From IMG/VR virus record IMGVR_UViG_3300008117_000001: DNA of 64,000 nt; one strand, written 5' to 3'. This stretch comes from a virus. Both the position numbers and the translations under genes were made by a program. The notes below the pieces were generated by a model. The model searched no databases. It saw nothing but the letters and a program-made list of their open reading frames with translations, and was not told the DNA's origin. Position 1 is the first letter of the stretch. The number at the start of each line of letters is the position of its first letter. Below are positions 252-27,000 of the stretch, one piece after another.

Positions 252-253
252 CA

Positions 254-2353
254 ATGGCTAATACAATTAGAATCAAAAGAAGGGCTTCCGGAGCATCTGG
301 TGCACCGAGTAGTTTGGAGAACGCAGAACTAGCTTTTAATGAAGTTGATGATGTTCTTTATTACGGTAAAGGCGTTGGGGGCGCAGGCGGAAGCGCCACT
401 ACAGTTGAAGCAATCGGTGGCAAAGGCGCATTTGTCGGACTTGCCGGAACTCAAACTATTACTGGAAATAAAACATTTTCTGGCACAGTTGCACTTGGTT
501 CATCTGCAAGCGCTACAACTAAATCAGCAGGAGACAATAGCACGGCAGTTGCTACAACAGCTTATGTAGATTCGGCAATAACAGCTGCATCATATACTTT
601 TACTCTGGCTGGAGATTCTGGAACTAGCCAAACAATTGATGATAATGAAACTGTAACAATTGCAGGTGGAACAGGCCTTTCTTCGGTCGCTTCATCAACA
701 AACACTGTAACCATAAATCTAGATAATACGACTGTAACAGCAGGAGCATATGGTTCTGCAACTCAAATTCCAACATTCACAGTCGACGCACAGGGTAGAT
801 TAACAGCAGCTAGCTATGAGTCAATCTCTACATCATTAACTGTCGGCGCAGATTCTGGAACAGCAGATTCAGTAGCTTTAGCAACTGATACATTGACTTT
901 TAGTGGCGGAGAAGGAATTGATACAGCTGTAACAAATAACACTATTACAATATCTGGAGAAGATGCAACGACATCAAATAAGGGAATCGCATCTTTTAGT
1001 TCCGATAGCTTTTCTGTTAGTTCTGGCGCCGTAAGTATTAAGCCTAGCGGAGTAAGTAATTCTCAGTTAGTTAATTCATCTATAACAATTGGATCAACAT
1101 CCGTATCCTTAGGTTCAACCAGCAATACGCTTGCTGGCCTGCAGCAGGTAGATATTGACAATATTCGCATTGATGGGAATACAATTTCCGCAACTGATAC
1201 TAATGGTGGAATTTCATTGGACCCAAATGGAACAGGTCACGTTTCTGTTAATAGTGCAAGAATAGAAAATCTTGCAAATCCAGAAAATCCCCAAGATGCC
1301 GCCACTAAAGCTTATGTTGATTCTGCAACCCAAGGTTTACATATTCACGCTACTGTTAAGGCTGCTACTGGAGCTACTTTGGCCAGCATAACTGGCGGAA
1401 CTGTTACATATGATAATGGAACAGATGGCGTTGGAGCTACCCTTACTTTAGGAACTGCTTTAACAGCATTAGATAATTACAATCTCCAAAATGGTGACAG
1501 AATTCTAGTTAAGAATCAGGCAACCGCAGCACACAACGGTATTTATAGATGGGCTACTGGTGGCACAGTACTAACAAGAGCTACTGACTTTGATACAGCA
1601 GCAGAAATTGCTGGTGGCGACTTCGTATTCGTTGATAGTGGAGACAATTATGCCAATACTGGCTGGGTAACTGCAGACGAAGTTAATACAGTTGGAACAG
1701 ACGCAGTTAACTGGATTCAATTCTCTGGTGCAGGAACATATCTTGCTGGAACCGGATTAGTATTAGATGGTTCTACTTTTAATATCAATTTAGCTACAAA
1801 CAGTGGCTTATTAATTACGTCAGATGAATTACAGGTAAATAGCACAATAGCTGGAAATGGTTTAACTTTTAGCAATGGCGTCATTGCTGTTGGTGGAACT
1901 TCTGACAGAATATCTGTAACTTCAGACGCAATAGATATTGCTTCAACTTATGCCGGACAGTCGAGTATTACTACCTTAGGGACAATTACGACAGGCACAT
2001 GGAATGGTACAACTATAGCGATAGCCAATGGTGGAACTGGCTCAACTAATGCATCAGATGCAAGAACTGCATTAGGTCTTGCTATTGGAACAAACGTTCA
2101 GGCATATGACGCCGAACTGGCTGCCATAGCTGGACTAACATCAGCAGCAGATAGACTTCCATACTTTACTGGTTCTGGTACAGCCGCACTTGCTACATTT
2201 ACTTCATTTGGTAGATCACTAGTCGATGATGCAGACGCATCTGCTGCAAGAACAACTCTAGGATTAGGGACAATTGCTACACAAAACTCAAACAACGTTT
2301 CAATTACAGGTGGATCAATTGATGGAATCACAATAGATGGTGGGACATTCTGA
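254..2353 (+). CDS. Tail fibre protein (699 aa)
   Basis: N-terminus [38 protein letters not shown] is typical of fibre N-terminal domains. Rich in T/S/G/A, with two AYVDSA motifs, a GDRILVKNQ...NGIY block and an [17 protein letters not shown] block, all recurrent in phage fibres. Confidence 0.8.
593..961 (+). repeat. Two imperfect about 44-aa repeats inside the tail fibre
   Basis: [44 protein letters not shown] (593-724) versus [44 protein letters not shown] (830-961). Confidence 0.6.
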
Positions 2354-11115: not shown

Positions 11116-11116
11116 A

Positions 11117-11746: not shown

Positions 11747-11759
11747 GTAGGAAACAAAG

Positions 11760-14700
11760 TTGATTAGAGATCCAGGGCCTATTCATAACTTAGGTTATAG
11801 CGTAACATCCAGAGATGTTCCTACAATGATAGACGAAGAAAGGGGCGATGCCCCTAATTCGTCTTTTATCTCAAAGGCCTTAAATAATCACCCTGTTTTA
11901 AGATTTGTATCTACGGCAGCCACTACCATGGCTTCAGCTTTTGTTTTGTCTAAGATAACAAAACAAGGTGGTCTAAAGCTAGCCAAAACAGTTCAAGACA
12001 GAGCGGATAGTGGAGCAAGCAGATTTGCTTCAAATATTGTTAATGTATTTCCTAAAATCAGAAGAGAATTCGACGAACTTTCTGGCGTTAGCCGAATGAT
12101 AGATGGGAATACTCCTGATCAAATAGATCCTTATTCAAGACTTGTTTTTGAAACCGCAGAAGGTAAATTAACTACCGGCGTCATTAAGCATACAGATAGA
12201 GGCTATCACTGGACTGCTGGAGAAATCAGCAAAAGTGGTAAGGGTATAGAATACGAGACTGCGGGAATATGGGGCTTCCGAGAAGAAGCTCAGTCCCGTT
12301 TGGTCTCTATGGCCCGTAGAATGCCCTATGAGCTGCCAGCAATGTATGTTGGCCAGAAAGCTATAGTTGATCCAATTTTTGGCGGTAGAGACGATTCTAA
12401 GGTCAAATGGTACAATCCTGTAGACGTAGTTACGGACTTCGTTAAGGACTCTACCATTAACCTAGTTACCATGATGATTCCAATGGAGGTTGGTGGCGCT
12501 GCCATTGGCAACGCAAGGTCATCCTTATCTAATTTTAGATATTCTATGTCAGACCTAGCTAGGTCTACCGGTACAACTGATTTAAAAACAAGATCTTCAA
12601 GGGCATTTGTCAATCTAGCCGACATGTTGTCAGAGGTTGGTCATGACCTGGCAGACATAACTCAAAAGGGTTTAAAGGTTTCTGCTCAAACTAGTGGAGC
12701 AATTAAAGCTGCAACCACAGAGTATAGTCAGCAAAGAGTTGACATTAATGCAATTCTTTCGCGAACAAGAAACTTAAGAGCAAAACAGATCTATGAGGAT
12801 TCTAAGGGCTCAAAATTAAAAAGAGCTAGAAACGTAGCAACGCAGTATGCGTTTGGCAATGACGCCAGTGGCAATTCTGGGTATTTAGATTTATTTCCGG
12901 GACTAAGAGGTGTTGGAAGTGCCGTAAGGCAGGGTATAAATCAATTCCGTAAAGTTGGCTACGGCTACGATGTAATAACGAGAGCTATTGATTTTGATGC
13001 AGCTGTGCAGAGATATGGCGCAGCTAATCCAAATGCTTTTAGAACAGAACTAAAGGGAATAGTCGGCAACCTTCAGGCGAACTCCTCTAATAGAATGACG
13101 ACTATGGCTAGCAAGATTGCTAGAACATTTGGTGGTCCGGCTGGATCAGATAACTTCTATGCATCAGAGTTTTATAAGGGAATAGAACAAACTGAGTATA
13201 AAAAAGTTTTATATAAATCCTTAATGGAAAGAACTGCAACTTCAGATAGAGATGAGTTTGCAAGAACAATAGCAAAATTTGTTGACGACATTGACGTTAG
13301 CAAAACTGCAATGGAGCCCTCTAGAAGAGTAACTATAGGCGAAACCAAAATACTACTCGATGGAGATGAGCCATTTGATGAAATCATAAATAGATTCAAG
13401 GGCACTCTTGCAAAAACTAGGGCCGATGAGTTCGTACAAAAAGTCGGAAATTCTGATGTACTAAAAGATTCTATTATCGACGCTAACAGACTTTTCACTG
13501 GCGCACAATTCCAGGCAGCATTAAAAGGAAAGGCAAACAAAGCTTATAAGGCATTCCAGGAACAAGGAATGGTTAAGGTAGCTGGAAAAGTCTTAAAAAC
13601 TAAAAAAGCAGATTTTGAAGATTTCCTAGATTTAGATAATCTTTCTTACGCACAAAAAGATTTCTTAGTTAAAAGATCAGCTCAAAGATTAGGCATGAGG
13701 CTAAAGACAGCTGATGGCAGAGATTTAACAAGAGGAGAATTAGGGGAGTCTTTAGGTAAGGTCGGCCTTAACATAAAAGATGCCGGTCAATTAAGAAGTT
13801 TTCTTGTTAGAGAAAAACAAATAAGTTCGGGAGTTTTTGCTAGTGGTTTTAACCTTCTTGGATTAAGAAGAATCACTGTTGATGAAGCAAATCAACGCGG
13901 AGTTTTTGCAAATGTAGACGATGAGACCAAGCGCGTTATAAATCAAATGTCTTCCAGCATGGTAAGGGCTGATCCAACGACAACCGCTGCTAGCGTTTCT
14001 GTTCTTCCAGATGTATTTATAACTAAGACTGGTAGTATTTTAGATGTTTCTGGAATAAGACAGTCTGCAAGAAATGTTGGAAACTTTTTAGCTAACGATT
14101 TAAGAATACCAGTTCTTGGATTTAATCCGGCAGATTTGGCGGCTAAGCAATCTTTTAATGAAATGTCCGGAAGGGCTCCGTTCCAGTTTATTCAAGGTAG
14201 AGTTTCTCAGCCATTTTTACAGGGCGCTGATAAGTCGGCTGATTTCTATTTGTTCTACAGCGGAGGAAGAACAAAAGGTAATGTTATGGCATTTAATTAT
14301 AATGTCATGGCCCAGCAATATACTTCTAGGACTTTAGATGGTACATTTAGACCTTTAGCTAAGAATAGCTCGCAATTGTTAACGAGGGCAGCAAGAAACG
14401 CTGCAGCGGAAAGAGATGCTGAGTCATTAAACTCTTTAAGTTATCAAGAAGGTACATTTAGAAGCAGATTCTTTTCTGGCCTATCAAGATTTGGAATGAC
14501 GCCAGAAAGAGAATTTAGGTTTAGAGAATTTTTTGATATTAACTATGATCAGCCAAACTCTGTATTTGGCTTCTTGTCTAGATTCTCTAGAAGAAATATT
14601 GATCCAGAAAATCCAAGATTCCTTGCACAAGTGATGACTGGCAAGGAAATCCCTACCAAAGCTGGTACAGCAAAAAGAAATATAGTAAAAAGCGCTGATG

Positions 14701-17700
14701 GAACTGTAGAAAAAATTAATGTAATCGATGTTGCCTCTGGCGAAGAAATGGTTTCAGAAAAAGCCTTATTAGAAGCTTTTGAAGGATTCAGAAGAAGAAC
14801 TCGTGCAGCTGGCTTTTCTCGTCGTGCAATGAAGCGAATTGAAGAAGCTGACCCAGCATTAGCTACTTATCATGGACAAAAAATTACCGATCTTCAAAAT
14901 GTTCAGGAAAAAATAGATTTTGCTAACGTCCTGCTTAGAGGCGTAGACAGAGATGCAAATATTCTTAGAAGACAGGGCATCGATCCTGTTGCGCTATATC
15001 AAAGCGGATCCAGGATCAATAAAGTATTAGAGGAAGCAGATCTGTTGTCTGGTTCTCAAATTCGTTCTGTTAGTCCAACAATTATTTCAAGAGAAGATGA
15101 ATTAACAAATGAAATGTTTAAGTTTCTAATTCAAAGAAATGAATTAGTTTCAAATAGCACTAGACAAACATTTGGTCAAAATTTTATTAAAATAAACCAA
15201 GCACTGACAAGCATGGCAAAAGAAATACCAGCTGGTGAACTAGCTGAAGCACAAGCTGCGGCCTTTGGTGCACTAACTAACCTTAACTCGGTAAGAGCAA
15301 ATAGATCTTTCTTAAAAGAGATTGAAGTTCAAAGAAGAGCGTTAGCAAACGTTATTGAATCTTTAGAGTCTGCTCCAGAATTGGCGCAACCATTTATTAG
15401 TGGTTCCATTGAACGAGTTGGGGAAATAGGAAGACTTGGTTTATTTAAAAAATTATTATATCCATCATTAAGTACAGCTTCTTTCAAAATATCTCATCTA
15501 GCAACAGACCCACTTGGTTCCGCAACTGGCCCCGGTGCTGACGTTTTACTAGTTCCTACTTTTGGTAGCGTATTTTCTAGAAATCCAATAGGCGCCCTCA
15601 AGAGCGTTGCTGGTATTAATACGTACAGTAGTCCAGAGAGTTATTCAAATTTATCAGCCGCAGTTTCTCATGGTGTTGAAAGATTAAACAAATACTTTGG
15701 AACAGTAGGCTTACAGCTAGACGTTAATCAGTATGGTTCGCCATTAGACTTGTTTGCTAGGGGCATGGTAGGCAAGAGGGTTTTGCCACTTTATGCTGGT
15801 GGCATGGCCTTTATGACTGCTGACAGAACAATTGGCGGGATGGTCAACGAAAAAGATGCAAGAGGAGAAAGAGTTTATTCTCCATTTTTTGTCGGAGCTG
15901 CCGCAAAAGCTGTTGGAGAAATTCACGCCCTAGGAGCTGGAGCTATGCCCGGCGGTATGAGCTACGAAGAAAAGAGAGAGCAGCTTTTTGAAGGAGAAGT
16001 TCCCATAAGACAGGGTCGTTTTTGGCCCTTGGGCAATACACCCTTTATGGGCGGAAAGATAATGTATTATAGGCCCAGTATTTATCGCAAGATTGAAACT
16101 GGCGCCATGTTTACATCTGACACCTATGGTTCGCCTATTGAAAGAGCTTTATTCTATACTGATATATCACCATTGCGTCCTTTAGATCCTTATCGTTTCG
16201 AAAGAAAACACTATGAAGATAGACCGTATCCTATTACTGGAGAATATTTTTCTGGTCCATTTGGTCCGCTGACTCCCGCCTTAAATGCTACTGTTGGAAG
16301 AGTACTAAAGCCACAAATAAAAATGCATGAGCAAGAGGTTTCTCAAGCATTATCAAATTATGCTCCGGCAGGACAATCTGGCGCATATGATGCTAGCGCT
16401 TATTTGCGACAAATTTCAATGCCTATGCTTCCTGGGCAGGCTCCGCAGCAACAGTTTGGTCAAGCGTCAATTGGCGGAGCTATGCAGGGAGCAGGACCAA
16501 TTATGTCTATGGGCATGTCTTCTGGCGGACCTGGTCCGGGTATGCAGGCATCATCAAACGCCGAGCTAGCAGGTAGAGCTGGAGCTTTGAATACAGCTAA
16601 ATATTCAACGATGCAAAACATAGGGCAGATAAATAGTCAGTATGCCCAAATGGCATATGGTCCGCCGAAAACTCCTGGTATGATGCCACCAAGAATAGTT
16701 GGTGCAGGATCGCCAATTTCTGTTGGTAATCCACAGGTTCAGATACAAGAATTTGGCTATAGAACACAGGAAGCCTTGGGTATATATGGTTTTGCTGGCG
16801 CAGCATTTAGGGAATCCTTTGGTTATGGTCAGGGTGACTTTGAGCCCCAAAGGGCAGTTCTTCAGTCTGCATCTAAAGCTTACGGAATGAGTAGACAGTT
16901 TTGGGACTATAACCTTGGAGGACTTGGTGACGTTCCGATGTTGGGTGGAAGGAACTTTGGTTCAATAGAATTTTCTGAAATAACTAGAAGATTTATACCA
17001 AAAGAAAGAACTGGAGTTGATTATCTTAATCCTATACAAAATACAATGGGACAACAGTATCCATTTTTACCAGGCCCAGAATATTACTTAGACTTTACTA
17101 GAGGAGATCCGTTCACTAAAGTCCAAGAAGGAGAATTGCGTTTGCCAGGAGTGGCATACGAAAGGCTAAATCAACTTCGTTCTGATGAAACTGGAAGATA
17201 TGGTTTATTAGATCAATTTAAGATCTTAGGAGATGTTGCGCCCTACTCTAAACAATATAGATATTTAGATAAAAAAATAGATAGTTATCTTAACGACCCT
17301 TCGGAAAAATTAGAGGCAGATAACATTAGAAATAGAGTAGCCTCTATACAGCAAAAAGAAAACTTCTCCGAATATAGTCATGTTGGTAAAACAGCAGCAG
17401 AGGCTGGAACAAATCCTTTAATTCATAATATATCTCGTGCAGCAGAATATATTGCGCATAGAGATACTTTTATAAATAGAAAGTTTATTAATAAACAAAC
17501 TGCGGTTGAGGATTGGGAAAGAAACAATGTTTATGGCGCAACTTTCCCAGAATGGCAAAGGCCTTTTGAAAGCTTTGTGGAGCCAATGATAAATAAAGCA
17601 GCAGACCGCAATCCAATAGCTGCTTCTGCAAGCTTGGCTGCTGCAGGCCTTTTTGCTGGCAGGACTCAGCCAGGTAAGTTGGTTATGTCTGGCTTGGGTG

Positions 17701-18455
17701 CAGTGACTGGACTAGCAGCTTCCGCCGGGGCAAATCTTCAGGAGGCAATAACTGGGGATAGATTTATTCCAACCGAAAGAAAGAAAGAACTAGCTCTTGA
17801 AGAGTATTCTGATATTTTAACTTATGTCAAAAATACAAGACTAGCCAATATGGCTGAAGCATCTGGTGATGCAGCGGCAGCTTTCCAATTTAGTTCTGCA
17901 GCAAAAAGAACAATGTATGGTGCGCCCATACAGGATATTGGCACTGGAAAATATGGAACAGATGTTGAATCTCTTTCTCTTGCTATTCCTAAAAGAAAAA
18001 GAGAACACTTTAAGGCAATGATAAATGCTCCAGAGCAAGATAGAGAAAGAATACTTTCAACAGCTGGCAGATTAGAAAGAAGAATATACGAAGCTGCATG
18101 GGGTATGCAGGTGGAAAAGCGCCCAGAATTAACAGACTATTTCAGCAGACACGAGCTGCCAGATGAAGGCTGGGAAGGGTGGCATCCCAATACTAATATG
18201 GATTCTGTTAAAATTAAAATAGGCCAACACATGGGTCTTGAAATGTCTCAAATGGGTTACTATCCACAACAGATAAGAGAAGCAAATCTTGCTAATCCAA
18301 GCTATCCTCGGTTCGGTTACTCTTCGGACTCCAATGCAGACGTAGCATATAGATTGCGATCTTTAATGAATGGCATGGGGGTTACTGGTTCCGTAACGCC
18401 TGTGATGAATCCATTTGGTGGTCAACAAGTTGACATAAGTGCAGGAGTTAGATAA
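11760..18455 (+). CDS. Tape-measure-like protein (2231 aa)
   Basis: Very long, helical, A/G/R-rich gene directly after the chaperones, with several hydrophobic segments. TTG start with AGGA upstream (start uncertain). Confidence 0.65.
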   Translation: MIRDPGPIHNLGYSVTSRDVPTMIDEERGDAPNSSFISKALNNHPVLRFVSTAATTMASAFVLSKITKQGGLKLAKTVQDRADSGASRFASNIVNVFPKIRREFDELSGVSRMIDGNTPDQIDPYSRLVFETAEGKLTTGVIKHTDRGYHWTAGEISKSGKGIEYETAGIWGFREEAQSRLVSMARRMPYELPAMYVGQKAIVDPIFGGRDDSKVKWYNPVDVVTDFVKDSTINLVTMMIPMEVGGAAIGNARSSLSNFRYSMSDLARSTGTTDLKTRSSRAFVNLADMLSEVGHDLADITQKGLKVSAQTSGAIKAATTEYSQQRVDINAILSRTRNLRAKQIYEDSKGSKLKRARNVATQYAFGNDASGNSGYLDLFPGLRGVGSAVRQGINQFRKVGYGYDVITRAIDFDAAVQRYGAANPNAFRTELKGIVGNLQANSSNRMTTMASKIARTFGGPAGSDNFYASEFYKGIEQTEYKKVLYKSLMERTATSDRDEFARTIAKFVDDIDVSKTAMEPSRRVTIGETKILLDGDEPFDEIINRFKGTLAKTRADEFVQKVGNSDVLKDSIIDANRLFTGAQFQAALKGKANKAYKAFQEQGMVKVAGKVLKTKKADFEDFLDLDNLSYAQKDFLVKRSAQRLGMRLKTADGRDLTRGELGESLGKVGLNIKDAGQLRSFLVREKQISSGVFASGFNLLGLRRITVDEANQRGVFANVDDETKRVINQMSSSMVRADPTTTAASVSVLPDVFITKTGSILDVSGIRQSARNVGNFLANDLRIPVLGFNPADLAAKQSFNEMSGRAPFQFIQGRVSQPFLQGADKSADFYLFYSGGRTKGNVMAFNYNVMAQQYTSRTLDGTFRPLAKNSSQLLTRAARNAAAERDAESLNSLSYQEGTFRSRFFSGLSRFGMTPEREFRFREFFDINYDQPNSVFGFLSRFSRRNIDPENPRFLAQVMTGKEIPTKAGTAKRNIVKSADGTVEKINVIDVASGEEMVSEKALLEAFEGFRRRTRAAGFSRRAMKRIEEADPALATYHGQKITDLQNVQEKIDFANVLLRGVDRDANILRRQGIDPVALYQSGSRINKVLEEADLLSGSQIRSVSPTIISREDELTNEMFKFLIQRNELVSNSTRQTFGQNFIKINQALTSMAKEIPAGELAEAQAAAFGALTNLNSVRANRSFLKEIEVQRRALANVIESLESAPELAQPFISGSIERVGEIGRLGLFKKLLYPSLSTASFKISHLATDPLGSATGPGADVLLVPTFGSVFSRNPIGALKSVAGINTYSSPESYSNLSAAVSHGVERLNKYFGTVGLQLDVNQYGSPLDLFARGMVGKRVLPLYAGGMAFMTADRTIGGMVNEKDARGERVYSPFFVGAAAKAVGEIHALGAGAMPGGMSYEEKREQLFEGEVPIRQGRFWPLGNTPFMGGKIMYYRPSIYRKIETGAMFTSDTYGSPIERALFYTDISPLRPLDPYRFERKHYEDRPYPITGEYFSGPFGPLTPALNATVGRVLKPQIKMHEQEVSQALSNYAPAGQSGAYDASAYLRQISMPMLPGQAPQQQFGQASIGGAMQGAGPIMSMGMSSGGPGPGMQASSNAELAGRAGALNTAKYSTMQNIGQINSQYAQMAYGPPKTPGMMPPRIVGAGSPISVGNPQVQIQEFGYRTQEALGIYGFAGAAFRESFGYGQGDFEPQRAVLQSASKAYGMSRQFWDYNLGGLGDVPMLGGRNFGSIEFSEITRRFIPKERTGVDYLNPIQNTMGQQYPFLPGPEYYLDFTRGDPFTKVQEGELRLPGVAYERLNQLRSDETGRYGLLDQFKILGDVAPYSKQYRYLDKKIDSYLNDPSEKLEADNIRNRVASIQQKENFSEYSHVGKTAAEAGTNPLIHNISRAAEYIAHRDTFINRKFINKQTAVEDWERNNVYGATFPEWQRPFESFVEPMINKAADRNPIAASASLAAAGLFAGRTQPGKLVMSGLGAVTGLAASAGANLQEAITGDRFIPTERKKELALEEYSDILTYVKNTRLANMAEASGDAAAAFQFSSAAKRTMYGAPIQDIGTGKYGTDVESLSLAIPKRKREHFKAMINAPEQDRERILSTAGRLERRIYEAAWGMQVEKRPELTDYFSRHELPDEGWEGWHPNTNMDSVKIKIGQHMGLEMSQMGYYPQQIREANLANPSYPRFGYSSDSNADVAYRLRSLMNGMGVTGSVTPVMNPFGGQQVDISAGVR

Positions 18456-18457
18456 AT

Positions 18458-21400
18458 ATGATGGGAAAAATAGCATCCTTTTTACAAGGGAGACGAGAAC
18501 AGATTCCGGAATATGAATCTATTAACGATTATTTAGCCTCCTATTTGTCTCCTCTTTCTCCAGAAAAACAAGTTAGAGCCGCCAGAAGAATTTTAGGTAA
18601 AATTCCTACTGGACAGAAAAAGCTAATAGAACCATTTGTTGATCCTTCTGATAATATTTTAAAGTATAGATCAGCTTATGATGATCCGGATCCTGCAATT
18701 GGCAGAAAAGTTTTTGATACCGTTGATGATGCTATTCAGTATTTTTCTTCTCTACAGATAACAGAAGTTTATAGAATATCTAAACAAGATGTTCCAGTTG
18801 TTTATAGAGGCTATGCGGAAGTTTTGAAGGATATAGAAAGAAATGCTATTGCACAAAATCTATTTGGAATAGAAGGTTTAGAAATGAACATTGCTATTCA
18901 TAAAGGGCAAATGGATTCCCAGCAGGGCAATGAGGCGCTAAAGGCTTTCTTTAAAACGCAAAAAGAAAAAGGATATGGTCTACTCCTGCCTACTGATGAG
19001 GGGGGTGTAGCAATGAATCTTGTTGCAACAATTGCAGGAAAAAGACAGGTTTTAAATCTGGAGCAAACTTTAGAGGTAATGCAATCAGCGAATGTTTCCA
19101 TCATAGACCCAGATGTTTTAGAAGAAGCAATGAGATCTGGTAACAAAAAACTCGCCTCCTTGATTCAAAAGTTGGACAAGAGATTGCGCGGAGTGTTGTC
19201 ACCAAGAGAAATTTCTATTGCTGGCGACGCAATGAGAAGGGTCCTTGATGAAGTAGGTAAGCCAGGGATGTCATTTGCTGACTCAATTCTTAATACTGAT
19301 CCGGTTTATGAAGCATTAGGATTGGCTCTAGATGTAGATACATTAAAAAATGTTTCTACAATGAAAAATGCCGAAAAAGCCGCAGATGCTGCACAAAGAA
19401 TAAAAGATTCCTGGATGATCAAAGGAACTGATAGATCTAAAGAGTTTTACAAAACAATATTAGATGAAGTTATCCAAGGCCAAAGCGGTCCTTCAAAAAA
19501 GTTGGCTGGAAAAGAAAGTCAAATATATGCAGACGTTACAAGCTACCTCAAGATCGCAATGCAAGATGCGATAGACAGTGGAGATGTTGATATTACGGTA
19601 GGCAAATATGGTACAGATGTTCTAAAGAAAAAATTAGGCTCGTTAAAAGAAACTCTTGAGAAAAAAGCAGGAGGCAGCGAAGCTGCTCTTAAAGCAATAG
19701 ATCAAAAATTCAGTATAATTGATATTCTTCTGGATGAAATTGAAAAAGGATCAGATGGCTCAATGTTGATCAATACTCCGTATACTAAAGCTATTCAAAG
19801 AGGCTATCAAGCTGAATTAGATGAGCTAGATAAGCGTTACGCACAAGCTAAAGATAGACTAGAAAAAGAAGATATTCTTTTAAAGAAAAGAGAAATTCAA
19901 AAATCGATGAGCCAATTAGATGAATCAAAAGGTTTATCTCAAATAACTGTTCGTGGCAACGTCGTATTTGATCAGGGTGATGCAACTAGGCCTGCAAGAA
20001 TATTTTCCCTAAAAGGCGCAGCAATGGATGTTGAATTTACCGGAAGGTATACCAAGTATTCAATTGTTGCACCTAAAGCCACAACAAAGAGGGAAACAAG
20101 AATATCTGGAGTTAGAGATATACTAAATATAAGCGGAACTGGGGAGTCCAAGGGTGCAGTCTACGCAGACCCGATGCTTGATGCATTTCACTCTGCAGTA
20201 TTCGGTTCAACGCAATCGCAAAAGTTGGGCAGAGAATATTCACAGCAAGTACAAAAAGAATTAAACGCAATGTTGAAGGCAAATAGAATTGACGAAAGTA
20301 GCACCTTCTTCCAGTCTTTGCAAAGAGCTGCTAATGAAATGTCTAGCGATCTATTAGAAACTCAACAATATTCACAGCTTATGCACAGGACGTTGGCTCA
20401 AGAAATATTGGCAATACACAAGAGTGGAGTTCCGTTGGATCAGCATCCTAGGGCCATGAATAGAATTTTAGACTTTGCTCAGAAAGAATTTTTTAAACTA
20501 AAGAAAGGAATTCCCCTACCAGTAATGCCCGATGTTTACAGATTTGCCTTAAATGCAGAGTCAACTCAGGTTGGAATTTCTGGTGGAAGAATGTTCCTAG
20601 ATATGGCCGATTCTAATATAGCCATGGATGAAGGATTTAGTATAAATACTACTAGGGTAAGATTTTCTAATCACAATTTATTGATGACCGAAAGAGACGT
20701 AATAAGATTTCACCATGCACTTGGTGGGTTCGACCTTGACGACAAGGGTCTACCAGTACTTGGTACATATATGTCTAACGGTAAAAGGCGTTTGGCCATG
20801 GCAATGGCTCGTCAGCCTACGGGCGCAGGAGAAATGGTAGGATTTGTTGAATTTAGAGACGTAGAAAGCTATAGAGAATTATTTGGTCATAATAAAGACT
20901 TCCTTAAGACATTGGATCAAATGATTTTAGACGAAGAAGAAAAGTTGGCATACCTTCAGGGTTCTGGTGGCTCTCCGGCATTACAGCGATTGAATATATT
21001 AAAAGAAAATTTAACAGGCAAACTTACAGCTGAAGACATGACTCGAATTGATGAGTCAGGTATATTAGATCAGTTGGAAGAAACAATAATAGATGTTAGA
21101 GATAGACTGTATGGTGGCAAAGCTAGAACTTTTAATAGATCATATTTTGAAGCTCTCGGCGTATTAAAGCAAGGCGAAAGTACAGTCAATTTTTTTGCAG
21201 GATCAAGGCTTGTTGATTTTGCTGGAGTTGATCCAGGTTTAGCTTCTTTAGGTTTTCAAAAGTTAAAAACTGAAGTAATGACTCTAAATCTTGAAAATGA
21301 CGTCTTTACAGCCTTAGAGCATTTGATGACAGATCAGCAAAAAACTCAACTAGGGGCCATTAGGAATCAAATTGAGCAACTAAAAGAACCAGCATATGCT

Positions 21401-23542
21401 GGTAGAGCTATACCTGGTTCATTGTACGACGATCCTTCACAAGTAGCTGCGCTGGAAGAGGCTCAAACAAATTTATCTAAAGCTTCAAAAGACTTTTATA
21501 AAACACTGGATGGATTTGGTTTAGATAAAGACAAAAGAGCTATTGCAATGAACAAATATTATTTGGAAGCAATGGAAAAAGCAGCCACTGAAAATGGAAA
21601 TAATCTTGGTAGACACGTCAACAGAGCCACCGTAATTGCAGATGGCTTGAATCAATTCGAAAAAGCATTTGGATCCAATCAAGCAATAAACGACGCTTTG
21701 CGCAGTAAGGGTTATGTTATTGGTCTCCCCGCATCAGAAACTGCTGTTGACATGACTCAGACATTTACCTCTGGAAGACTAACGTTAAAAGCTGAAGCCG
21801 AAACAGCAGCAGACCTACGATATGGTATGGATATTTTTAAGAGAATGTATGGAAATAACTTTGACCTAGAAGAGCATGGGGCAGACAGCGTTAGTAGATA
21901 TGGAAAAATGTTTGGTTACCTGCAAAATAGAGAAGGAAAAACCTTTACTCTTGATAAGGCCTTAATAGATTTTGGCAAACTTAATACAGAAGACTTAAGA
22001 TCCTTTGCAGAGTCTTACATAGCTGGTGCTGAAGAAAGGATTGCAGAAGGTATAGGAATAGAAGAAGATCTAAGTACCATAAAAGCGCTTTTCAATAAGG
22101 GAGACGCACCTGGTAAGCGCCAGTTAATAGATGCGTTGACGCAAACTGGTATTATTGGAAGGGGAAACTTATCTGAGACAATTTCTGTGGCAAAAGAAGC
22201 ATTTGACTATTTAAACGCAACAAGGAAAAGATTTTCCGATAACCTAAATGAACTAAGAGATACTTTAACTGCTGGCATGGGCAAAAATGCTACGGAGGCT
22301 AGAGAGTCAGCAAGGGCTATATTGGATGCAAATAAAGAAATTTTTAAAGAGTTAAATGATTCAACTACCGCATATAGAGAGGCTCAAAAAATTCTTAACT
22401 CTGGGATAGAAGAGGGTAATTTTATCAGTGCTGCTAGAAGAGAAGAATTGTCGATAGGTTTTGAAGGCGCTAGGCTAAGAGCGGAAATACTAAAAACTGA
22501 ATTGGGTGATAATTTACTTAGTGGCATTAATGAGGTTAGATCGCAAAGGCCGTTGACCGGATTTAATTTACTTAATGCGCTTCAATTAGAGGCTTTAGAT
22601 AGGGGGATGAGCCCATATGTTTTTGAAGGACTACAGGATCTAACCGAAAATTCTAATGAAGAATTTGCAAACTTCTTTGCTAGAGTAAATATAGCTAAAA
22701 GGCAAAAAGCAGCTTATATGAAAGCTACTTCTAACTTACAGGTTCAGTCTATGGTGGACAATTTTTTTGCCACCACTTCTTCAATGAGAGATCTACTACT
22801 AGGAGATATTGTTGGAGGTACTCTTTTGGATTTATCACAATATGGTGATATTACTAGCGTTTTTTCTGCTAGTGGCATCAACATTGATGCTACCCAATTA
22901 AGGGCAGCCCTCAATGAAGGGGTAATGGATACTACAGATCAAAATATTGCAACCATAGCAAATGCGATAAGGTCTAGAGCCTTGTACGAAACGCAGATTT
23001 TAGATCCAGCAGTAGATGACTTTTTGAACGGGCAAATATCTGCAGATAAAGTAGTCGGCCCTAAAGATAGACCAACTGGTATAGTGCGAGATGTTTTAAG
23101 AGAGCTGGGGGATCAATCTCCTTCAAATGTAAATCCATCAAAATTTAAACGTTTAGACATGGATTATTTAACTGAACAGTTCTCTAAGCCATCTGTCAAA
23201 AAAGCTGCCATTGGAGCTGGCTTGTTAATAGCTGGAAGCTTTTTATATCAGAACAAAAAAGATAGAACAGCAGAAGATGCAGCTGGTCCACCATTGCTTC
23301 CAGGTGGATCAGCGTACGAAGAAGGGTATCCTACCCCAAATATATCCATGCCCCAAGTTGCCGGAGGGGGCTATTCTTCTGGAATGAGTTATAAAGTTTC
23401 TCTATATGGTTCCAGGGAAGAGGTAGAAAGATTTCAGCAAGCAGCTTCAGGAGTTACTAATGGATCAGTTAACAGTACTATGTATAACAGGATTCCCAGT
23501 GTAACGTCTGATCCATATCAGCAGCTCGCTAGTTCATTTTAA
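18458..23542 (+). CDS. Candidate virion-associated single-subunit two-barrel RNA polymerase (non-canonical catalytic loop)
   Basis: Ordered motifs: SDGSMLIN (D433), QITVRG...SLKGAA (Q495, R499, K519), IVAPKATTK (K544), ALGGFDLDDKG (D759, D761, D762), ARQPT (R785), NNLGRHVNRATVIAD (about 1049-1062), ETAVD (D1098); C-terminal hydrophobic helix. Motif reading by eye only. Confidence 0.6.
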   Translation: MMGKIASFLQGRREQIPEYESINDYLASYLSPLSPEKQVRAARRILGKIPTGQKKLIEPFVDPSDNILKYRSAYDDPDPAIGRKVFDTVDDAIQYFSSLQITEVYRISKQDVPVVYRGYAEVLKDIERNAIAQNLFGIEGLEMNIAIHKGQMDSQQGNEALKAFFKTQKEKGYGLLLPTDEGGVAMNLVATIAGKRQVLNLEQTLEVMQSANVSIIDPDVLEEAMRSGNKKLASLIQKLDKRLRGVLSPREISIAGDAMRRVLDEVGKPGMSFADSILNTDPVYEALGLALDVDTLKNVSTMKNAEKAADAAQRIKDSWMIKGTDRSKEFYKTILDEVIQGQSGPSKKLAGKESQIYADVTSYLKIAMQDAIDSGDVDITVGKYGTDVLKKKLGSLKETLEKKAGGSEAALKAIDQKFSIIDILLDEIEKGSDGSMLINTPYTKAIQRGYQAELDELDKRYAQAKDRLEKEDILLKKREIQKSMSQLDESKGLSQITVRGNVVFDQGDATRPARIFSLKGAAMDVEFTGRYTKYSIVAPKATTKRETRISGVRDILNISGTGESKGAVYADPMLDAFHSAVFGSTQSQKLGREYSQQVQKELNAMLKANRIDESSTFFQSLQRAANEMSSDLLETQQYSQLMHRTLAQEILAIHKSGVPLDQHPRAMNRILDFAQKEFFKLKKGIPLPVMPDVYRFALNAESTQVGISGGRMFLDMADSNIAMDEGFSINTTRVRFSNHNLLMTERDVIRFHHALGGFDLDDKGLPVLGTYMSNGKRRLAMAMARQPTGAGEMVGFVEFRDVESYRELFGHNKDFLKTLDQMILDEEEKLAYLQGSGGSPALQRLNILKENLTGKLTAEDMTRIDESGILDQLEETIIDVRDRLYGGKARTFNRSYFEALGVLKQGESTVNFFAGSRLVDFAGVDPGLASLGFQKLKTEVMTLNLENDVFTALEHLMTDQQKTQLGAIRNQIEQLKEPAYAGRAIPGSLYDDPSQVAALEEAQTNLSKASKDFYKTLDGFGLDKDKRAIAMNKYYLEAMEKAATENGNNLGRHVNRATVIADGLNQFEKAFGSNQAINDALRSKGYVIGLPASETAVDMTQTFTSGRLTLKAEAETAADLRYGMDIFKRMYGNNFDLEEHGADSVSRYGKMFGYLQNREGKTFTLDKALIDFGKLNTEDLRSFAESYIAGAEERIAEGIGIEEDLSTIKALFNKGDAPGKRQLIDALTQTGIIGRGNLSETISVAKEAFDYLNATRKRFSDNLNELRDTLTAGMGKNATEARESARAILDANKEIFKELNDSTTAYREAQKILNSGIEEGNFISAARREELSIGFEGARLRAEILKTELGDNLLSGINEVRSQRPLTGFNLLNALQLEALDRGMSPYVFEGLQDLTENSNEEFANFFARVNIAKRQKAAYMKATSNLQVQSMVDNFFATTSSMRDLLLGDIVGGTLLDLSQYGDITSVFSASGINIDATQLRAALNEGVMDTTDQNIATIANAIRSRALYETQILDPAVDDFLNGQISADKVVGPKDRPTGIVRDVLRELGDQSPSNVNPSKFKRLDMDYLTEQFSKPSVKKAAIGAGLLIAGSFLYQNKKDRTAEDAAGPPLLPGGSAYEEGYPTPNISMPQVAGGGYSSGMSYKVSLYGSREEVERFQQAASGVTNGSVNSTMYNRIPSVTSDPYQQLASSF

Positions 23543-24007: not shown

Positions 24008-27000
24008 ATGTCTAATGTTGAGCAGTCAGAAAATGAAGGAGAACAGAATCTAAACTCTTCTGATCCATTGTCATATGACTATAGCCAAAAGGCTTTTATG
24101 AATATGATGATGATTGGCCCGCTTGGCTTGACTGGCAGTATTGATGACATTACAGGTAATCCACTTGAGGCAATCGAAAGGTTCTTCTCGATAACAAGAC
24201 CAGATGTTATTCCAGATTTAAAAAATTTTGATGATCCAGGTGGAGCAGAGGATTTTAAATCCGATACAGACAATTATCAAAAAAGAATTGAAGCAACCAG
24301 TAGGGTATTTACTTCTGGCGGAACATTATCTTCTCTTGTTGACGATGGCGCTCTCTTAATTAATTTATATAAGAGGCTAGAGTCAACAGGGCTACTGTAT
24401 CTTGCATCATTTGCTTATGAAATAAGTGAATTTGGCAAAAAAAGGCTTCAAAATGTTTACATGACCCAAAAGTCATTGGATTACCATGTAGATCCAGCTG
24501 TAGATACCCAATGGTTAACTCTTTTGAGTCAAGTAGTTTACAGTCTGCAAGCAGATCCAATATCTTTTTCTATTATTAATCATTACCTTCCAGGGTTAAT
24601 GACTTTCGTTTTCGATGCACTAGCTGTCACTGGCGACTATTCTAATGCCGGTAAAGGTGGGGGAAGAGAAGATACTCTCAATAGAGAAGAAGACGCGATT
24701 GAAGAGTTAGAGAAAGCTTTTGGTGTAGCGCCAAATGGTGAACCAATATTCACAATGGCGTTCAGAATTAATGGTGGGAATACTTCGGCAAGAATTCGTA
24801 AGGCTATAGAAGATTTTCCATTTAGAGCAAATATACCTCCTAAAAAGCCCGATATATTTCATCTTCGTTTAGGCGCAGCAAACTTTTATGTTCCGCCTAT
24901 TTCTGTTACAGTTAATTCGGCTTTCAAAACTGGATCACTTACTGGTGGAGCAATCAGGCAAAGAAATACACCCAAATATAATGCAGGATATAAAGAGACT
25001 TCAATTTCTCTAAGACTATTTTTTCCAAACTATCAAGAAATATGGGGCATGCACATAAGTGATGCCTCGTCAATAAATTTGAAAGAAAATTTTAAAATAG
25101 ACTTTAAGAGTAGTGGTGATTCAGAAGAAAAAATAGATAAGTTTCTTTCTTCTTTGCGAGGTCTAATTGCAGCTTTTAAATATTCACCTATACTCCCGAT
25201 AAAAAATGATTATATAAATTCTGTTCATGGAATTACCGCTGTAGCCCTATCTTCTATGTCTATTTCAACAGTGCCTAATTATCCTTTTTCTTTAATGGTT
25301 GATCTTGAGTTACTTAGCTACAATCATAAGCCATTTCTACCTATGGTTAAAGATTTTAACCAAGCCATTCACTGGGGTAAATATAGGCAGTATATGGGCA
25401 AGGCTGCTGGCGCAATGCACAAGTATGCCAATGAGTCTTTCTTGTTGAAGACTTCAGATAATAGAAATTCTGAAGAGAGCGAAGATAATACTGGCTTGAT
25501 TCGCAGTGGGGATTACATATATCAGACTAGCCCTTATGGTTCTTCAGTGACAAGCGAATCGGCAATTGTTGACTCTTCTTTGACTGATGATACAGTTGAA
25601 TTACTTAATACTTATGAGAATGATGTTTTGTATACAAATATAGTTTCTCAGTGGAGAGATGGAAGTAACTTAACTTTTTATACTCCAGCTGAAACTCAGA
25701 CAAAAATGTTCTTGCCAGACACTACTTCTTTTAGAAGTGAACAAGAAAAAATTCTAGATCAACAAAGTTATGGCCTATGGAATGGCTTATTAGCAAAATT
25801 TGGAATCGAGATTTCTCCTAATACGCCAGCAATTAAAGATATAAACCAAGTTAAGTCTCTTTCTTTGGAGCCAACATTTGCTTCTTCTACGGCAACATTT
25901 GTTCGTCAAGCAGTAGACATTATGACCGCTGGAGTTAGTCAATCTGACTACAGGGCTGGTATCTATAGGTATAAGATGCAATCCTTTATTTCCAGCAACT
26001 TAATTAAATTAAGCGCTGAAGAAAAGGAATGGCTACTAAAATACCTTAGTCCAGATGAGATGCCTTACGATGCAGATTACTTCTCGCAATATCCAACAGA
26101 GGGATCATACATTTTAAATGATCCAGTTTTTAATGATGAAAATGATAATGTTAGCTTAAACTTCATTAAAAGAAGTATATGGAATTCTGTTTTTCAATCA
26201 GGCAATATCATAGATACTTTAGTCATTGAAGAAGTTGAAAGAAGAAAAGTTTTAGGTGTCGAAATAGCTGTTCCTGACGAAGAAAAGGTGCGACAGCAAG
26301 TAACTGATGCATTCATGCTTTCCTTGTATAATCGTTTCTTTTCAGACGGTTATGTGCAGAATCTTATGGAGGCTAAGCGTTTAAGAGAGGGAGATTACCA
26401 CTTCCAGGAATGGGAAGTTCCCATGAATCGGGTTGATTTAGATCCTAAAAAAGCTATAGTCAACGGCGTTAGCATAAGTCTTGGCAACAATCTTGCAAAG
26501 CTACAGGTTCAAATGCAGGATGAGCCGACCTATCAATATATAGGCGGAAAAGATTCTTATGTTAATATATCAATGACTGTTTTTGGCGAAAGAGAGCTTT
26601 ATAAGATTAGAGCAATCTTTGATCACATTAACTCTTTAGCCAGACTTGAGCACTCAACTGGTGTTATTGGTTTCTTGGGGATGAAAAATATTATTACTGC
26701 ATTGTGCGGAATTAAATATGTTATTCCTTTGAATTTTAAAGTAGATACTATACCTAATTATCCGCACGTATACAATGTGCAATTGAGCCTTGTCGACTTT
26801 GATATATTCCAGCAGCAAAGAGAAAAGCTTTCATCAAAACAGCAAAGTGATTTTATTGAACATTTTGGTTCAAAGAGAAATCCATTTTTAAGAATTAAGC
26901 AGTTGTGGGGAGCGTTTAATGCATATCCCGATATGCCACTGGAGGTTCGCGATAAAAATGATGAAGTCGTTGGAAACTTAGATCCAGATTTTTATTTTAG

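What the first reader, a model, noticed from the sequence alone, without database searches (positions are those of the whole stretch)
20660..20850. Non-canonical catalytic loop (DLDD instead of DxDGD) and R-x-P placed after it
Seen: NLLMT-helix-ALGG-F-D-L-D-D-K-GLPVLGTY-MSNG-KRRLAMAMA-R-Q-P-TGAGEMVGF. Known: in beta-prime and RdRPs the R-x-P strand comes about 35 residues before an invariant DxDGD (crAss-type enzymes use DFDID). Here the Gly is missing and R785-Q-P lies 23 residues downstream. Inference: either a strand-permuted barrel with a new three-Asp geometry (a new polymerase subtype, perhaps needing activation as reported for phi14:2 gp66) or a catalytically dead polymerase reused structurally.
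Basis: partly seen in the sequence, partly recalled or inferred. Interest (0 to 1): 0.78.

Follow-up and report, generated by a model that had tools for sequence, protein, structure and literature searches.

The report
Polymerase-like core with rearranged active site
A 1,694-residue protein in the tail-length-ruler gene position of an uncultured contractile-tailed phage is predicted to contain a cellular-type RNA polymerase core; its metal-binding loop (D-x-D-D) and nucleotide-gating R-x-P loop are absolutely conserved but non-standard in form and order, and no experiment has yet shown activity.

Summary
ORF 18458-23542 (+), 1694 aa, reads GGF-D759-L-D761-D762-K, and R785-Q-P787 lies 23 residues downstream. 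A D-x-D-D by itself is expected by chance (about 0.6 per protein). Its conservation is not: in 138 homologues found without using the motif, G756, D759, D761, D762, R785, P787 and E792 are identical in 138 of 138.

AlphaFold models of aa 401-1200 and 470-840 match only single-chain two-barrel RNA polymerases over long stretches. These are QDE-1 (Z 7.3-7.6, about 360 residues), P23-45 gp64, P74-26 gp62 and maize RDR2. The matches are moderate, and no sequence profile finds any polymerase family.

Gene order puts the protein in the tape-measure slot of the 0305phi8-36 lineage. The closest known case is therefore the tape-measure-fused virion polymerase gp96 of Thermus phage P23-45.

A dead enzyme is unlikely. 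The canonical R-x-P ("Pro-gate") loop lies 38-45 residues before the Asp triad in reference enzymes. That position is variable here. The downstream R-Q-P sits in a hairpin beside the Asp loop and co-varies with the first barrel.

A true strand permutation could not be proved, because no coordinates were available.

The scan has reported this gene family before on other genomes.

Verdict: new variant of a known kind.

The parts
18458..23542 (+). ORF of 1694 aa (P0001), in the tape-measure slot of the tail module
   Evidence: ORF list and translation. Same gene order in 60 related loci. The upstream neighbour is a homologue of 0305phi8-36 gp145, so this gene takes the place of gp146, the tape measure.
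19721..21967 (+). Two-barrel polymerase-like core, aa about 422-1170
   Evidence: VIA-align: QDE-1 Z 7.3-7.6, 348-364 residues aligned, model 22..768 against chain 700..1148; P23-45 gp64 Z 5.7, 290 aligned. Model pLDDT 75.5, pTM 0.71.
19754..19759 (+). Invariant D433-G434, a candidate counterpart of QDE-1 D709 (the fourth acidic residue)
   Evidence: Invariant in alignments A1 and A2. It lies 11 residues after the start of the QDE-1 alignment, as D709 lies 9 after residue 700 (PMC9508822). The mapping is inferred from these offsets only.
19940..20191 (+). First (beta-like) barrel strands, with R499, K519, K544, and V568-Y-A-D571-P572
   Evidence: K519 113/116, K544 125/126, D571 121/130. Predicted strands 496-505, 514-525 and 556-559. 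Hairpin couplings 498-520 and 500-521.
20492..20857 (+). Second (beta-prime-like) barrel region, aa 679-800
   Evidence: Predicted strands and helix. The alignments to QDE-1, RDR2 and gp62 end 10 residues after the Asp loop, as they do in the targets.
20540..20542 (+). R695 (V-Y-R-F-A strand), an upstream conserved Arg
   Evidence: 132/138. Position 698 couples with 764, and positions 695 and 700 couple weakly with 758/760 in the Asp loop.
20660..20662 (+). R735 (F-R-x-S-N-H), a second upstream conserved Arg, 24 residues before D759
   Evidence: 117/138. Couplings 735-757 and 734-760.
20723..20746 (+). Metal-loop candidate G756-G-F-D759-L-D761-D762-K763
   Evidence: G756, D759, D761 and D762 are 138/138; K763 is 125/138. 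The loop follows a strand and a helix, as the DxDGD loop does in reference enzymes.
20744..20815 (+). Beta-hairpin K763-S773 / K776-Q786 with an N774-G775 turn
   Evidence: DSSP of both models. Couplings 772-777, 772-776 and 771-777.
20810..20833 (+). R785-Q-P787-T-G-A-G-E792, a candidate relocated Pro-gate loop plus an invariant Glu
   Evidence: R785, P787 and E792 are 138/138; Q786 is 124/138. A cluster of couplings links 786/788/789 to 571-578 of the first barrel.
21608..21625 (+). G1051...N1055-R1056 in a long helix, a candidate bridge-helix element
   Evidence: G1051 invariant, N1055 at least 90%. Helix 1049-1071. The QDE-1 bridge helix uses N1087/R1091. The assignment is inferred.
21749..21751 (+). 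Invariant D1098
   Evidence: Invariant in A1 and A2. Role unknown.
23204..23248 (+). Hydrophobic segment AAIGAGLLIAGSFLY flanked by Lys
   Evidence: Read from the sequence. It falls below a strict Kyte-Doolittle cut-off of 1.6. 0305phi8-36 gp146 has a comparable segment about 130 aa from its end.
23246..23539 (+). Conserved C-terminal block (GPPLLPGGSAYE ... DPY..ASSF)
   Evidence: Many invariant columns between 1597 and 1691. It was usable as a search pattern.
11760..18455 (+). Upstream 2231-aa gene, homologue of 0305phi8-36 virion protein gp145
   Evidence: Profile built from window and relatives against gp145: E 6.9e-145.
24008..35128 (+). Downstream 3706-aa baseplate hub gene
   Evidence: phrog_20474. 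tblastn match to 0305phi8-36 ORF147, the hub.

Best explanation
The gene encodes a large tail-lumen protein in the tape-measure slot. Residues about 422-1170 form a very divergent single-chain two-barrel nucleotide polymerase, most likely an RNA polymerase that enters the host with the DNA and starts phage transcription. This is what P23-45 gp96 has been shown to do.

The finding concerns the active site. Strand 740-743 and helix 745-754 lead into the loop G-G-F-D759-L-D761-D762-K. This loop is the counterpart of the DxDGD metal loop, shortened by one residue.

The next strand (763-773) turns at N774-G775 into a return strand (776-786). The return strand ends in R785-Q-P787 and brings that tripeptide back beside the Asp loop, into the cleft between the two barrels. 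Invariant E792 follows.

I infer that R785-Q-P787 does the job of the canonical Pro-gate loop. In that loop the Arg binds the 2'-OH of the incoming NTP and the Pro gates the minor groove. Here it would be supplied from after the metal loop instead of 38-45 residues before it. I also infer that the acidic set D759/D761/D762, perhaps with E792 and D433 or D571, binds the two Mg2+ ions in an altered geometry.

Shown: the sequence, its invariance, the predicted fold class, the gene position, and the hairpin and interface co-variation.

Inferred: catalysis, which residue does what, presence in the virion, and delivery into the host.
For: - Invariance: G756, D759, D761, D762, R785, P787 and E792 are 138/138 in homologues as low as about 20% identity, found without the motif.
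- Fold, 800-aa model: the only matches longer than about 100 residues are QDE-1 (Z 7.3-7.6, 348-364 aligned), Thielavia QDE-1 (Z 6.8) and P23-45 gp64 (Z 5.7, 290 aligned). QDE-1 is also Foldseek's top PDB hit, weakly (E 0.53).
- Fold, 371-aa model: QDE-1, P74-26 gp62 and maize RDR2 are 3 of the top 5 among 48,161 chains. All cover model residues 3/13..303 and end 10-14 residues after the Asp loop in both partners.
- Canonical R-x-P lies 38-45 residues upstream in four reference enzymes. The matching place here (about aa 714-721) has no Arg or Pro and is rich in insertions and deletions.
- The hairpin is predicted in both models with an Asn-Gly turn, and its register is supported by the coupling 772-777.
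- Eight couplings link 786-790 to 571-578 of the first barrel.
- Position: 60 loci share the order chaperone-like genes, gp145 homologue, this gene, small ORF, hub.
- Precedent: the tape-measure-fused virion RNAP of P23-45 (PMC10770324).
- Complete genomes of relatives show no other recognisable RNAP.
Against: - No sequence method links the family to any polymerase: Pfam, PHROGs, PDB profile searches, and hhalign against gp96, gp64 and orf99 all found nothing.
- Structural Z-scores are moderate and lie within the range the tool warns can be chance for single rows.
- The Asp loop itself has low model confidence (pLDDT 56 for model residues 351-360).
- The two hallmark motifs of the superfamily, DxDxD and an upstream R-x-P, are both absent in their canonical form.
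- The co-variation analysis has few effective sequences (129 for 382 columns).
- No virion proteomics, activity data or cultured relative exist.
- 0305phi8-36 gp146, in the same slot, shows no similarity to this protein and has no such motif.
Confidence: 0.55

Rival explanations
1. It is the same polymerase-like core, but the second barrel has the ordinary strand order. The DLDD loop is a one-residue deletion of DxDxD. The hairpin carrying R785-Q-P...E792 is a lineage-specific addition, for example a latch between the two barrels or a nucleic-acid contact. The NTP-contacting Arg would then be R695 or R735 from upstream strands.
For: - There are enough predicted strands before the Asp loop (679-743) for a complete six-stranded barrel, including a confidently predicted strand at 719-723 in the canonical R-x-P place.
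- Sequence-ordered alignments to QDE-1, RDR2 and gp62 run colinearly up to aa 772 and need nothing downstream.
- Conserved R695 (132/138) and R735 (117/138) lie on strands next to the Asp loop: 735 couples with 757 and 698 with 764, and 695 couples only weakly with 758/760.
- Strand 776-786 pairs as a hairpin with the strand after the Asp loop. As far as I recall the double-psi topology, the canonical R-x-P strand does not do this.
Against: - R785 and P787 are strictly invariant (138/138), whereas R695 and R735 are not.
- The segment LAMAMARQPTGAGEMVGFVEF has the same pattern and loop length as the canonical R-x-P hairpins of gp96, gp64 and orf99.
- No R-x-P exists upstream.
Confidence: 0.28
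2. It is a two-barrel fold that has lost catalysis and is kept as a structural or nucleic-acid-binding module of the tail-lumen protein.
For: - The canonical DxDxD and upstream R-x-P are both missing.
- The slot is that of a structural protein.
- The gene is split or frameshifted at various points in several metagenomic relatives.
Against: - Four acidic residues, an Arg, a Pro and a Gly are absolutely invariant while the rest of the protein falls to about 20% identity. This pattern is that of an active site, not a scaffold.
- Further invariant charged residues lie in the first barrel and downstream: K519, K544, D433 and D1098.
Confidence: 0.06
3. It is not a polymerase. The Asp cluster would belong to another enzyme typical of tape measure proteins, such as a cell-wall hydrolase built on a single double-psi barrel (MltA / 3D-domain / RlpA type), or to an unrelated metal-dependent enzyme. 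The polymerase matches would then be chance.
For: - Tape measure and hub proteins often carry wall-degrading domains.
- Structural Z-scores are moderate (4.6-7.6) and Foldseek E-values are not significant.
- There is no sequence link to polymerases.
Against: - No Pfam match to 3D, DPBB_1 or any hydrolase, even at E up to 1-10.
- No such fold appears in the top 50 of either wide structural search, while every long match is a two-barrel polymerase covering both beta-rich regions and the helices after them.
- The hub next door already carries the lysis-type domain.
Confidence: 0.1

Closest known systems
Thermus phage P23-45 gp96 (also P74-26, G20c, TSP4): virion two-barrel RNA polymerase fused to the tape measure protein (Chaban et al. 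2024, PMC10770324)
   Same: Both are single-chain two-barrel polymerase(-like) cores inside the protein encoded in the tape-measure slot of the tail module. Both would presumably travel through the tail into the host. Neither shows significant sequence similarity to other polymerases outside the metal loop. The companion enzymes of gp96, gp64 and gp62, are among the structural matches here.
   Different: - gp96 belongs to a long non-contractile tail and has 5002 aa, with the polymerase at residues 327-1124, canonical DFDGD (779-783) and R-N-P 38 residues upstream.
- Here the tail is contractile (sheath and baseplate genes) and the protein has 1694 aa with the core at about 422-1170.
- The loop here is DLDD and R-Q-P lies 23 residues downstream.
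- No metallopeptidase domain and no second (non-virion) polymerase were found.
- hhalign finds no relation to gp96.
Neurospora QDE-1 and plant RDR2 (cellular RNA-dependent/DNA-dependent RNA polymerases, Pfam PF05183)
   Same: These are the best structural matches (Z 7.3-7.6 over about 360 residues; RDR2 Z 4.6). The order of elements matches: an early invariant Asp (D433 / D709), the first barrel, a helical connector, the second barrel with the acidic loop after a strand and helix, then long helices. G-G precedes the acidic loop.
   Different: QDE-1 has D1007-Y-D-G-D1011 and the Pro-gate loop R962-S-P964 45 residues upstream. There is no Pfam PF05183 match here. About 270 extra residues lie between the acidic loop and the end of the aligned core.
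Bacillus phage 0305phi8-36 tail module (gp143/144 chaperonins, gp145, gp146 tape measure, gp147 hub) and its separate polymerase orf99
   Same: The gene order is the same. The upstream 2231-aa gene is a clear homologue of gp145 (E 6.9e-145), and the hub matches ORF147. Both slot proteins have a hydrophobic segment about 110-130 aa before the C-terminus.
   Different: gp146 (2537 aa) has no D-x-D-D or D-x-D-x-D and no detectable similarity to this protein. 0305phi8-36 instead has a free-standing PF05183-type polymerase, orf99, with DTDGD, among non-structural genes. No such gene is found in complete genomes of this family's relatives.

Membership tests
Two-barrel (double-psi beta-barrel) nucleotide polymerases, single-chain type | Two beta-barrel domains in one chain, in the order beta-like then beta-prime-like, with a helical connector and following helices | tested here: met
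   At the level of predicted fold only. QDE-1 Z 7.3-7.6 with 348-364 residues aligned; gp64 Z 5.7 with 290; gp62 Z 5.0 with 185; RDR2 Z 4.6 with 214. These are the only long matches. Z values are moderate and the models have pLDDT 71-75.
Two-barrel (double-psi beta-barrel) nucleotide polymerases, single-chain type | D-x-D-x-D metal-binding signature in the second barrel | tested here: not met
   The loop is D759-L-D761-D762, and no D-x-D-x-D exists in the protein. D-x-D-D is fixed in 138/138 homologues.
Two-barrel (double-psi beta-barrel) nucleotide polymerases, single-chain type | R-x-P (Pro-gate) loop about 35-45 residues before the acidic triad | tested here: not met
   It lies 38, 38, 44 and 45 residues upstream in gp96, gp64, orf99 and QDE-1. 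Here that stretch is variable and has no R-x-P. An invariant R-Q-P lies 23 residues downstream.
Two-barrel (double-psi beta-barrel) nucleotide polymerases, single-chain type | Conserved basic and acidic residues of the first barrel facing the active site (for example QDE-1 D709) | tested here: inconclusive
   D433, R499, K519, K544 and D571 are invariant or nearly so. Their equivalence to reference residues rests on offsets, not on a residue-level superposition.
Two-barrel (double-psi beta-barrel) nucleotide polymerases, single-chain type | Bridge helix and trigger loop after the second barrel | tested here: inconclusive
   The alignment to QDE-1 continues to model residue 768 (aa 1168). Helix 1049-1071 carries G1051, N1055 and R1056. 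No residue-level mapping was possible.
Two-barrel (double-psi beta-barrel) nucleotide polymerases, single-chain type | Significant sequence-profile match to a described polymerase family | tested here: not met
   Pfam, PHROGs, PDB sequence and profile searches, and hhalign against gp96, gp64 and orf99 all found nothing.
Two-barrel (double-psi beta-barrel) nucleotide polymerases, single-chain type | Template-dependent nucleotide polymerisation | not testable with these tools
   Needs a biochemical assay.
Tape-measure-fused virion RNA polymerase (P23-45 gp96 type) | Encoded in the tape-measure slot, between the tail chaperone genes and the distal tail or hub genes | tested here: met
   Synteny in 60 loci, anchored to 0305phi8-36 gp145 and gp147.
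Tape-measure-fused virion RNA polymerase (P23-45 gp96 type) | Detectable homology to gp96 and a canonical DFDGD | tested here: not met
   hhalign probability 0.1. The loop is DLDD instead of DFDGD.
Tape-measure-fused virion RNA polymerase (P23-45 gp96 type) | Paired with a second, non-virion polymerase paralogue in the same genome | tested here: not met
   The family profile hits one place per genome in four large relatives, two of them complete (CheckV 100%, terminal repeats). No PF05183, PF00940 or PF00623 was found. A very divergent paralogue could be missed.
Tape-measure-fused virion RNA polymerase (P23-45 gp96 type) | Present in virions and active early in infection | not testable with these tools
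   No cultured relative is in the phage collection.
Tail tape measure protein | Length proportional to tail length; resides in the tube lumen | not testable with these tools
   Only the gene position and a C-terminal hydrophobic segment are seen. Length varies between 1536 and 1757 aa among relatives.
Single-barrel wall hydrolases (MltA / 3D domain / RlpA) | Profile or fold match to these families | tested here: inconclusive
   No Pfam match at E up to 10, and none in the top 50 structural rows. Absence from these lists does not exclude the family.

The most novel reading that the evidence does not exclude
The second barrel would be a natural strand-rearranged double-psi barrel. The Pro-gate R-x-P hairpin would follow the metal loop instead of preceding it, and the metal ligands would be D-x-D-D plus E792. 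That would be a new active-site architecture within the two-barrel polymerases. It is fixed in a large family of tape-measure-slot proteins of contractile-tailed phages of about 180-210 kb.
Probability: 0.35. Interest if true: 0.8.

Novelty: new variant of a known kind. Interest (0 to 1): 0.63.

Why it matters
The metal loop (DxDxD) and the Pro-gate loop (R-x-P) are among the most conserved features of all cellular-type RNA polymerases. Suppose a whole phage family keeps both functions, but with one residue fewer in the metal loop and the gate loop supplied from the other side of it. That would show how far this ancient active site can be rebuilt. It would also give a natural test case for ideas on barrel permutation in polymerase evolution.

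The case would also extend tape-measure-linked polymerase delivery, known from one Thermus siphovirus group, to large contractile-tailed phages that otherwise appear to have no polymerase of their own. In addition, motif-based screens for D-x-D-x-D miss this family entirely.

Tried and rejected
- Sequence searches of the whole protein or its core against Pfam, PHROGs, PDB sequences and PDB profiles gave nothing relevant.
- tblastn against 50,697 phage records gave no match.
- The ESM Atlas gave no usable hit.
- hhalign of the family profile against single sequences of gp96, gp64 and orf99 gave probability 0.4 or less.
- BLASTP and profile searches against 0305phi8-36 gp145 and gp146 gave nothing for this protein.
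- Foldseek against PDB with the 371-aa model was uninformative.
- BFVD returned only uncharacterised proteins of uncultured phages (E 1.7e-6 and weaker) and weak rows for pieces of giant crAss-like proteins.
- A profile search for longer relatives, meant to find a sister family with a canonical motif that could bridge the alignment, returned only members with GGFD[LF]DD...RQPT.
- I tried to deduce the barrel's strand order from co-variation. The strand pairs 699-740, 698-764, 772-777, 734-781 and 720-741 suggest that strand 776-786 flanks the strand after the Asp loop. In canonical barrels an N-terminal strand takes that place. I could not confirm the canonical neighbour order from a source, and the analysis is noisy, so I do not rest a claim on it.
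- The freshwater 'moraphage' lineage (PMC12619734) is T4-like and was rejected as unrelated.
Full report
**What is there**

The finding lies in a 1694-aa ORF, window 18458-23542 on the + strand. The key stretches are G756-G-F-D759-L-D761-D762-K763 (nt 20723-20746) and R785-Q-P787 (nt 20810-20818), 23 residues after D762. The protein has no D-x-D-x-D anywhere. One D-x-D-D is about what chance gives in a protein of this size and composition (0.59 expected). The motif on its own therefore carries no weight.

**Conservation**

- A word-indexed search and an exhaustive phmmer search found a large family. There are 124 representatives at 50% clustering, mostly 1550-1750 aa, with none named and no Pfam domain. 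A further 63 loci came from IMG/VR contigs of up to 210 kb.
- The IMG/VR loci were found partly through the pattern GGFDLDD, so they are biased for it. The protein sets are not.
- I aligned all 142 proteins held at that point to the family profile; four do not reach the site. In the 138 that span it, G756, D759, D761, D762, R785, P787 and E792 are each 138/138.
- Other conserved residues are K544 (125/126), K519 (113/116), R695 (132/138), K763 (125/138), Q786 (124/138) and R735 (117/138).
- Overall identity falls to about 20%. D433-G434, R499, G1051 and D1098 are also invariant in the wider alignment.
The answer is no.

**Fold**

No sequence method recognises the protein.

- The AlphaFold2 model of aa 401-1200, built with a 39-sequence alignment, has mean pLDDT 75.5 and pTM 0.71.
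- Foldseek's best PDB hit for it is QDE-1, but weakly (E 0.53).
- VIA-align gives QDE-1 Z 7.5 with 363 residues aligned (model 22..765 against chain 700..1145), among otherwise short helical matches.
- A second look gives five N. crassa QDE-1 entries at Z 7.3-7.6 (348-364 aligned), Thielavia QDE-1 at Z 6.8 (359 aligned) and P23-45 gp64 (entry 8f72) at Z 5.7 (290 aligned; model 28..771 against chain 105..444).
- A second model, of aa 470-840 alone, has pLDDT 71. Searched against 48,161 representative chains, it returned QDE-1 (Z 5.5, 227 aligned), P74-26 gp62 (Z 5.0, 185 aligned) and maize RDR2 (Z 4.6, 214 aligned) among the top five.
- All three cover model residues 3/13..303 and end 10-14 residues after the acidic loop in both partners.

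Each Z value alone lies in the range the tool warns about. The pattern is harder to dismiss. Every long match is a single-chain two-barrel polymerase, the same range is covered each time, and the offsets around the acidic loop agree. I put the fold assignment at about 0.8.

**Anatomy around the finding**

The models predict the following elements.

| Element | Residues |
|---|---|
| Strand | 740-743 |
| Helix | 745-754 |
| Loop carrying DLDD | 755-762 |
| Strand | 763-773 |
| Two-residue turn (N774-G775) | 774-775 |
| Strand, ending in R785-Q | 776-786 |
| Loop P-T-G-A-G-E | 787-792 |
| Strand | 793-798 |

- The sequence strand, helix, acidic loop, strand is what the reference enzymes show. 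Examples are NAVVVN-QEYAKSTGV-DFDGD-TLVVLP in gp96 and similar stretches in gp64 and orf99. The loop is therefore best read as DxDGD with the Gly position deleted.
- Two equal strands joined by Asn-Gly form a tight hairpin. In its register R785, Q786 and P787 face G764, K763 and D762.
- A mean-field co-variation analysis (175 sequences, 129 effective) recovers the register through the pairs 772-777, 772-776 and 771-777.
- The same analysis shows a cluster of couplings between 786/788/789 and 571-578, the segment after the invariant V-Y-x-D-P of the first barrel.
- The R-Q-P loop is therefore predicted to sit next to the acidic loop at the interface of the two barrels, which is where the active site of such enzymes lies.
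This rests on predicted secondary structure and co-variation only. The tools give no coordinates, so no distance was measured.

**The R-x-P question**

In QDE-1 the conserved R962-x-P964 is the 'Pro-gate loop'. The Arg binds the 2'-OH of the NTP and the Pro gates its minor groove (PMC9508822). It lies 45 residues before D1007.

In gp96, gp64 and 0305phi8-36 orf99 the R-x-P lies 38, 38 and 44 residues before the first Asp. In this family the corresponding stretch (about aa 714-721) has no Arg or Pro and is the most indel-rich part of the domain alignment.

The downstream segment L-A-M-A-M-A-R-Q-P-T-G-A-G-E-M-V-G-F-V-E-F has the same pattern and loop length as the canonical hairpins. Compare IAFTFRNPVMGHGGALLQARV in gp96 and RFAAFRSPLIHKSEAVVLNTV in orf99. 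It is also the invariant one. This favours the view that the gate loop is now supplied from after the metal loop.

Several points argue against a simple 'moved strand'.
- There are enough strands upstream for a whole barrel, including one predicted with good confidence at 719-723.
- The order-dependent structural alignments to canonical enzymes need nothing beyond aa 772.
- Conserved R695 and R735 also lie on strands that couple with the acidic loop.
- Strand 776-786 pairs with the strand that follows the acidic loop. As far as I recall the double-psi topology, the canonical R-x-P strand does not do this.

My odds are as follows. R785-Q-P as the functional gate loop: about 0.5. A true topological rearrangement of the barrel: about 0.35. 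An ordinary barrel plus an added conserved hairpin: about 0.3.

**Other possible equivalences (inferred from offsets only)**

- D433 lies 11 residues after the start of the QDE-1 alignment, as D709 lies 9 after residue 700. D709 is the fourth conserved Asp, which holds cation B through a water molecule.
- N1055-R1056, in a long helix, recalls N1087/R1091 of the QDE-1 bridge helix.
- Invariant E792 may be an extra metal or substrate ligand.

**Context**

- The window is the tail module of a contractile-tailed phage, with sheath and baseplate wedge genes.
- All 60 related loci with enough flank share one order: two chaperone-like genes, a 2231-aa gene, this gene, a 148-aa ORF, and the giant hub.
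- A profile of the 2231-aa gene hits 0305phi8-36 gp145, a virion protein, at E 6.9e-145. The hub matches ORF147.
- This gene therefore occupies the place of gp146, the assigned tape measure.
- It shows no similarity to gp146, and gp146 has no such motif. Both have a hydrophobic segment 110-130 residues before the C-terminus.
- The 2231-aa neighbour is far better conserved than this protein, whose length drifts between 1536 and 1757 aa.
- In four large relatives, two of them complete with terminal repeats, the family profile hits once per genome. No PF05183, T7-type or Rpb1-type polymerase is found. The controls for the first two of those searches did not ring, so those negatives are weak.

**Comparison with what is known**

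The closest known system is the tape-measure-fused virion RNA polymerase gp96 of Thermus phage P23-45. That enzyme is active in vitro, present in virions, flat and clampless, and carries DFDGD at 779-783 (PMC10770324). My literature searches found no report of such an enzyme in a contractile-tailed phage or with a D-x-D-D loop.

The present protein works like that system in position and predicted fold. It fails the two signature tests of the superfamily in their canonical form, and it has no detectable sequence relation to gp96. I therefore file it as a new variant, not as a member.

**Earlier notes of this scan**

Notes on this genome led me to 0305phi8-36. I checked that lead myself.

After I had reached my reading, look-ups showed that follow-up agents had reported the same gene family on other genomes, with the same closest known system. 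The family is therefore not new to the scan.

This report adds the following on the active site:
- the 138/138 statistics;
- the absence of an upstream R-x-P;
- the hairpin register;
- the co-variation that places R-Q-P at the barrel interface.

**Limits**

There are no coordinates, no residue-level superposition, no activity data and no virion data.

Noticed in passing
L028, L033, L034, L041, L054 (about 770 aa into the gene); L051, L056 (about 1110 aa); L062 (about 1356 aa); L058 and L061 (several breaks): In many metagenomic relatives the gene is broken into two or more overlapping reading frames. Five independent contigs share a break right after the second barrel (in L034, frames 8942-11227 and 11196-13619). 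Proteins P0191-P0193 start 18 residues before the DLDD loop. The cause could be a real split gene, a programmed frameshift, introns or assembly errors.
   Followed up: partly
window 11760-18455 (+): The 2231-aa gene upstream has no Pfam or PHROG match, and the ORF listing gives it a TTG start. It is a clear homologue of the mass-spectrometry-verified virion protein gp145 of Bacillus phage 0305phi8-36 (E 6.9e-145). Its length is nearly constant (2134-2247 aa) across 60 loci, and it is much better conserved than the tape-measure-slot gene.
   Followed up: yes
window 23553-23999 (+): A 148-aa ORF lies between the polymerase-like gene and the hub and is present in nearly all related loci that extend that far (146-168 aa). 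0305phi8-36 has no gene at this place.
   Followed up: no
window 23246-23539 (+), aa 1597-1694: The C-terminal 100 residues (GPPLLPGGSAYE ... YKVS..G ... TMYN.IP ... DPY..ASSF) are the most conserved part of the protein outside the active site. This block may be the part that docks to the hub or tail tip.
   Followed up: no
window 24008-35128 (+), hub aa 1715-1733 and 3594-3612: The 3706-aa hub protein has two strongly hydrophobic 19-residue segments (Kyte-Doolittle mean 1.69 and 1.75).
   Followed up: no
BFVD entries A0A6J5NTF7, A0A6J5M9G6, A0A6J5MEC6 (uncultured Caudovirales phages): Predicted structures of these uncharacterised 850-1140-aa proteins match the core model (Foldseek E 1.7e-6 to 1.8e-3 at 12-14% identity). 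They may be fragments of this family or a sister family. Their sequences could not be fetched.
   Followed up: no
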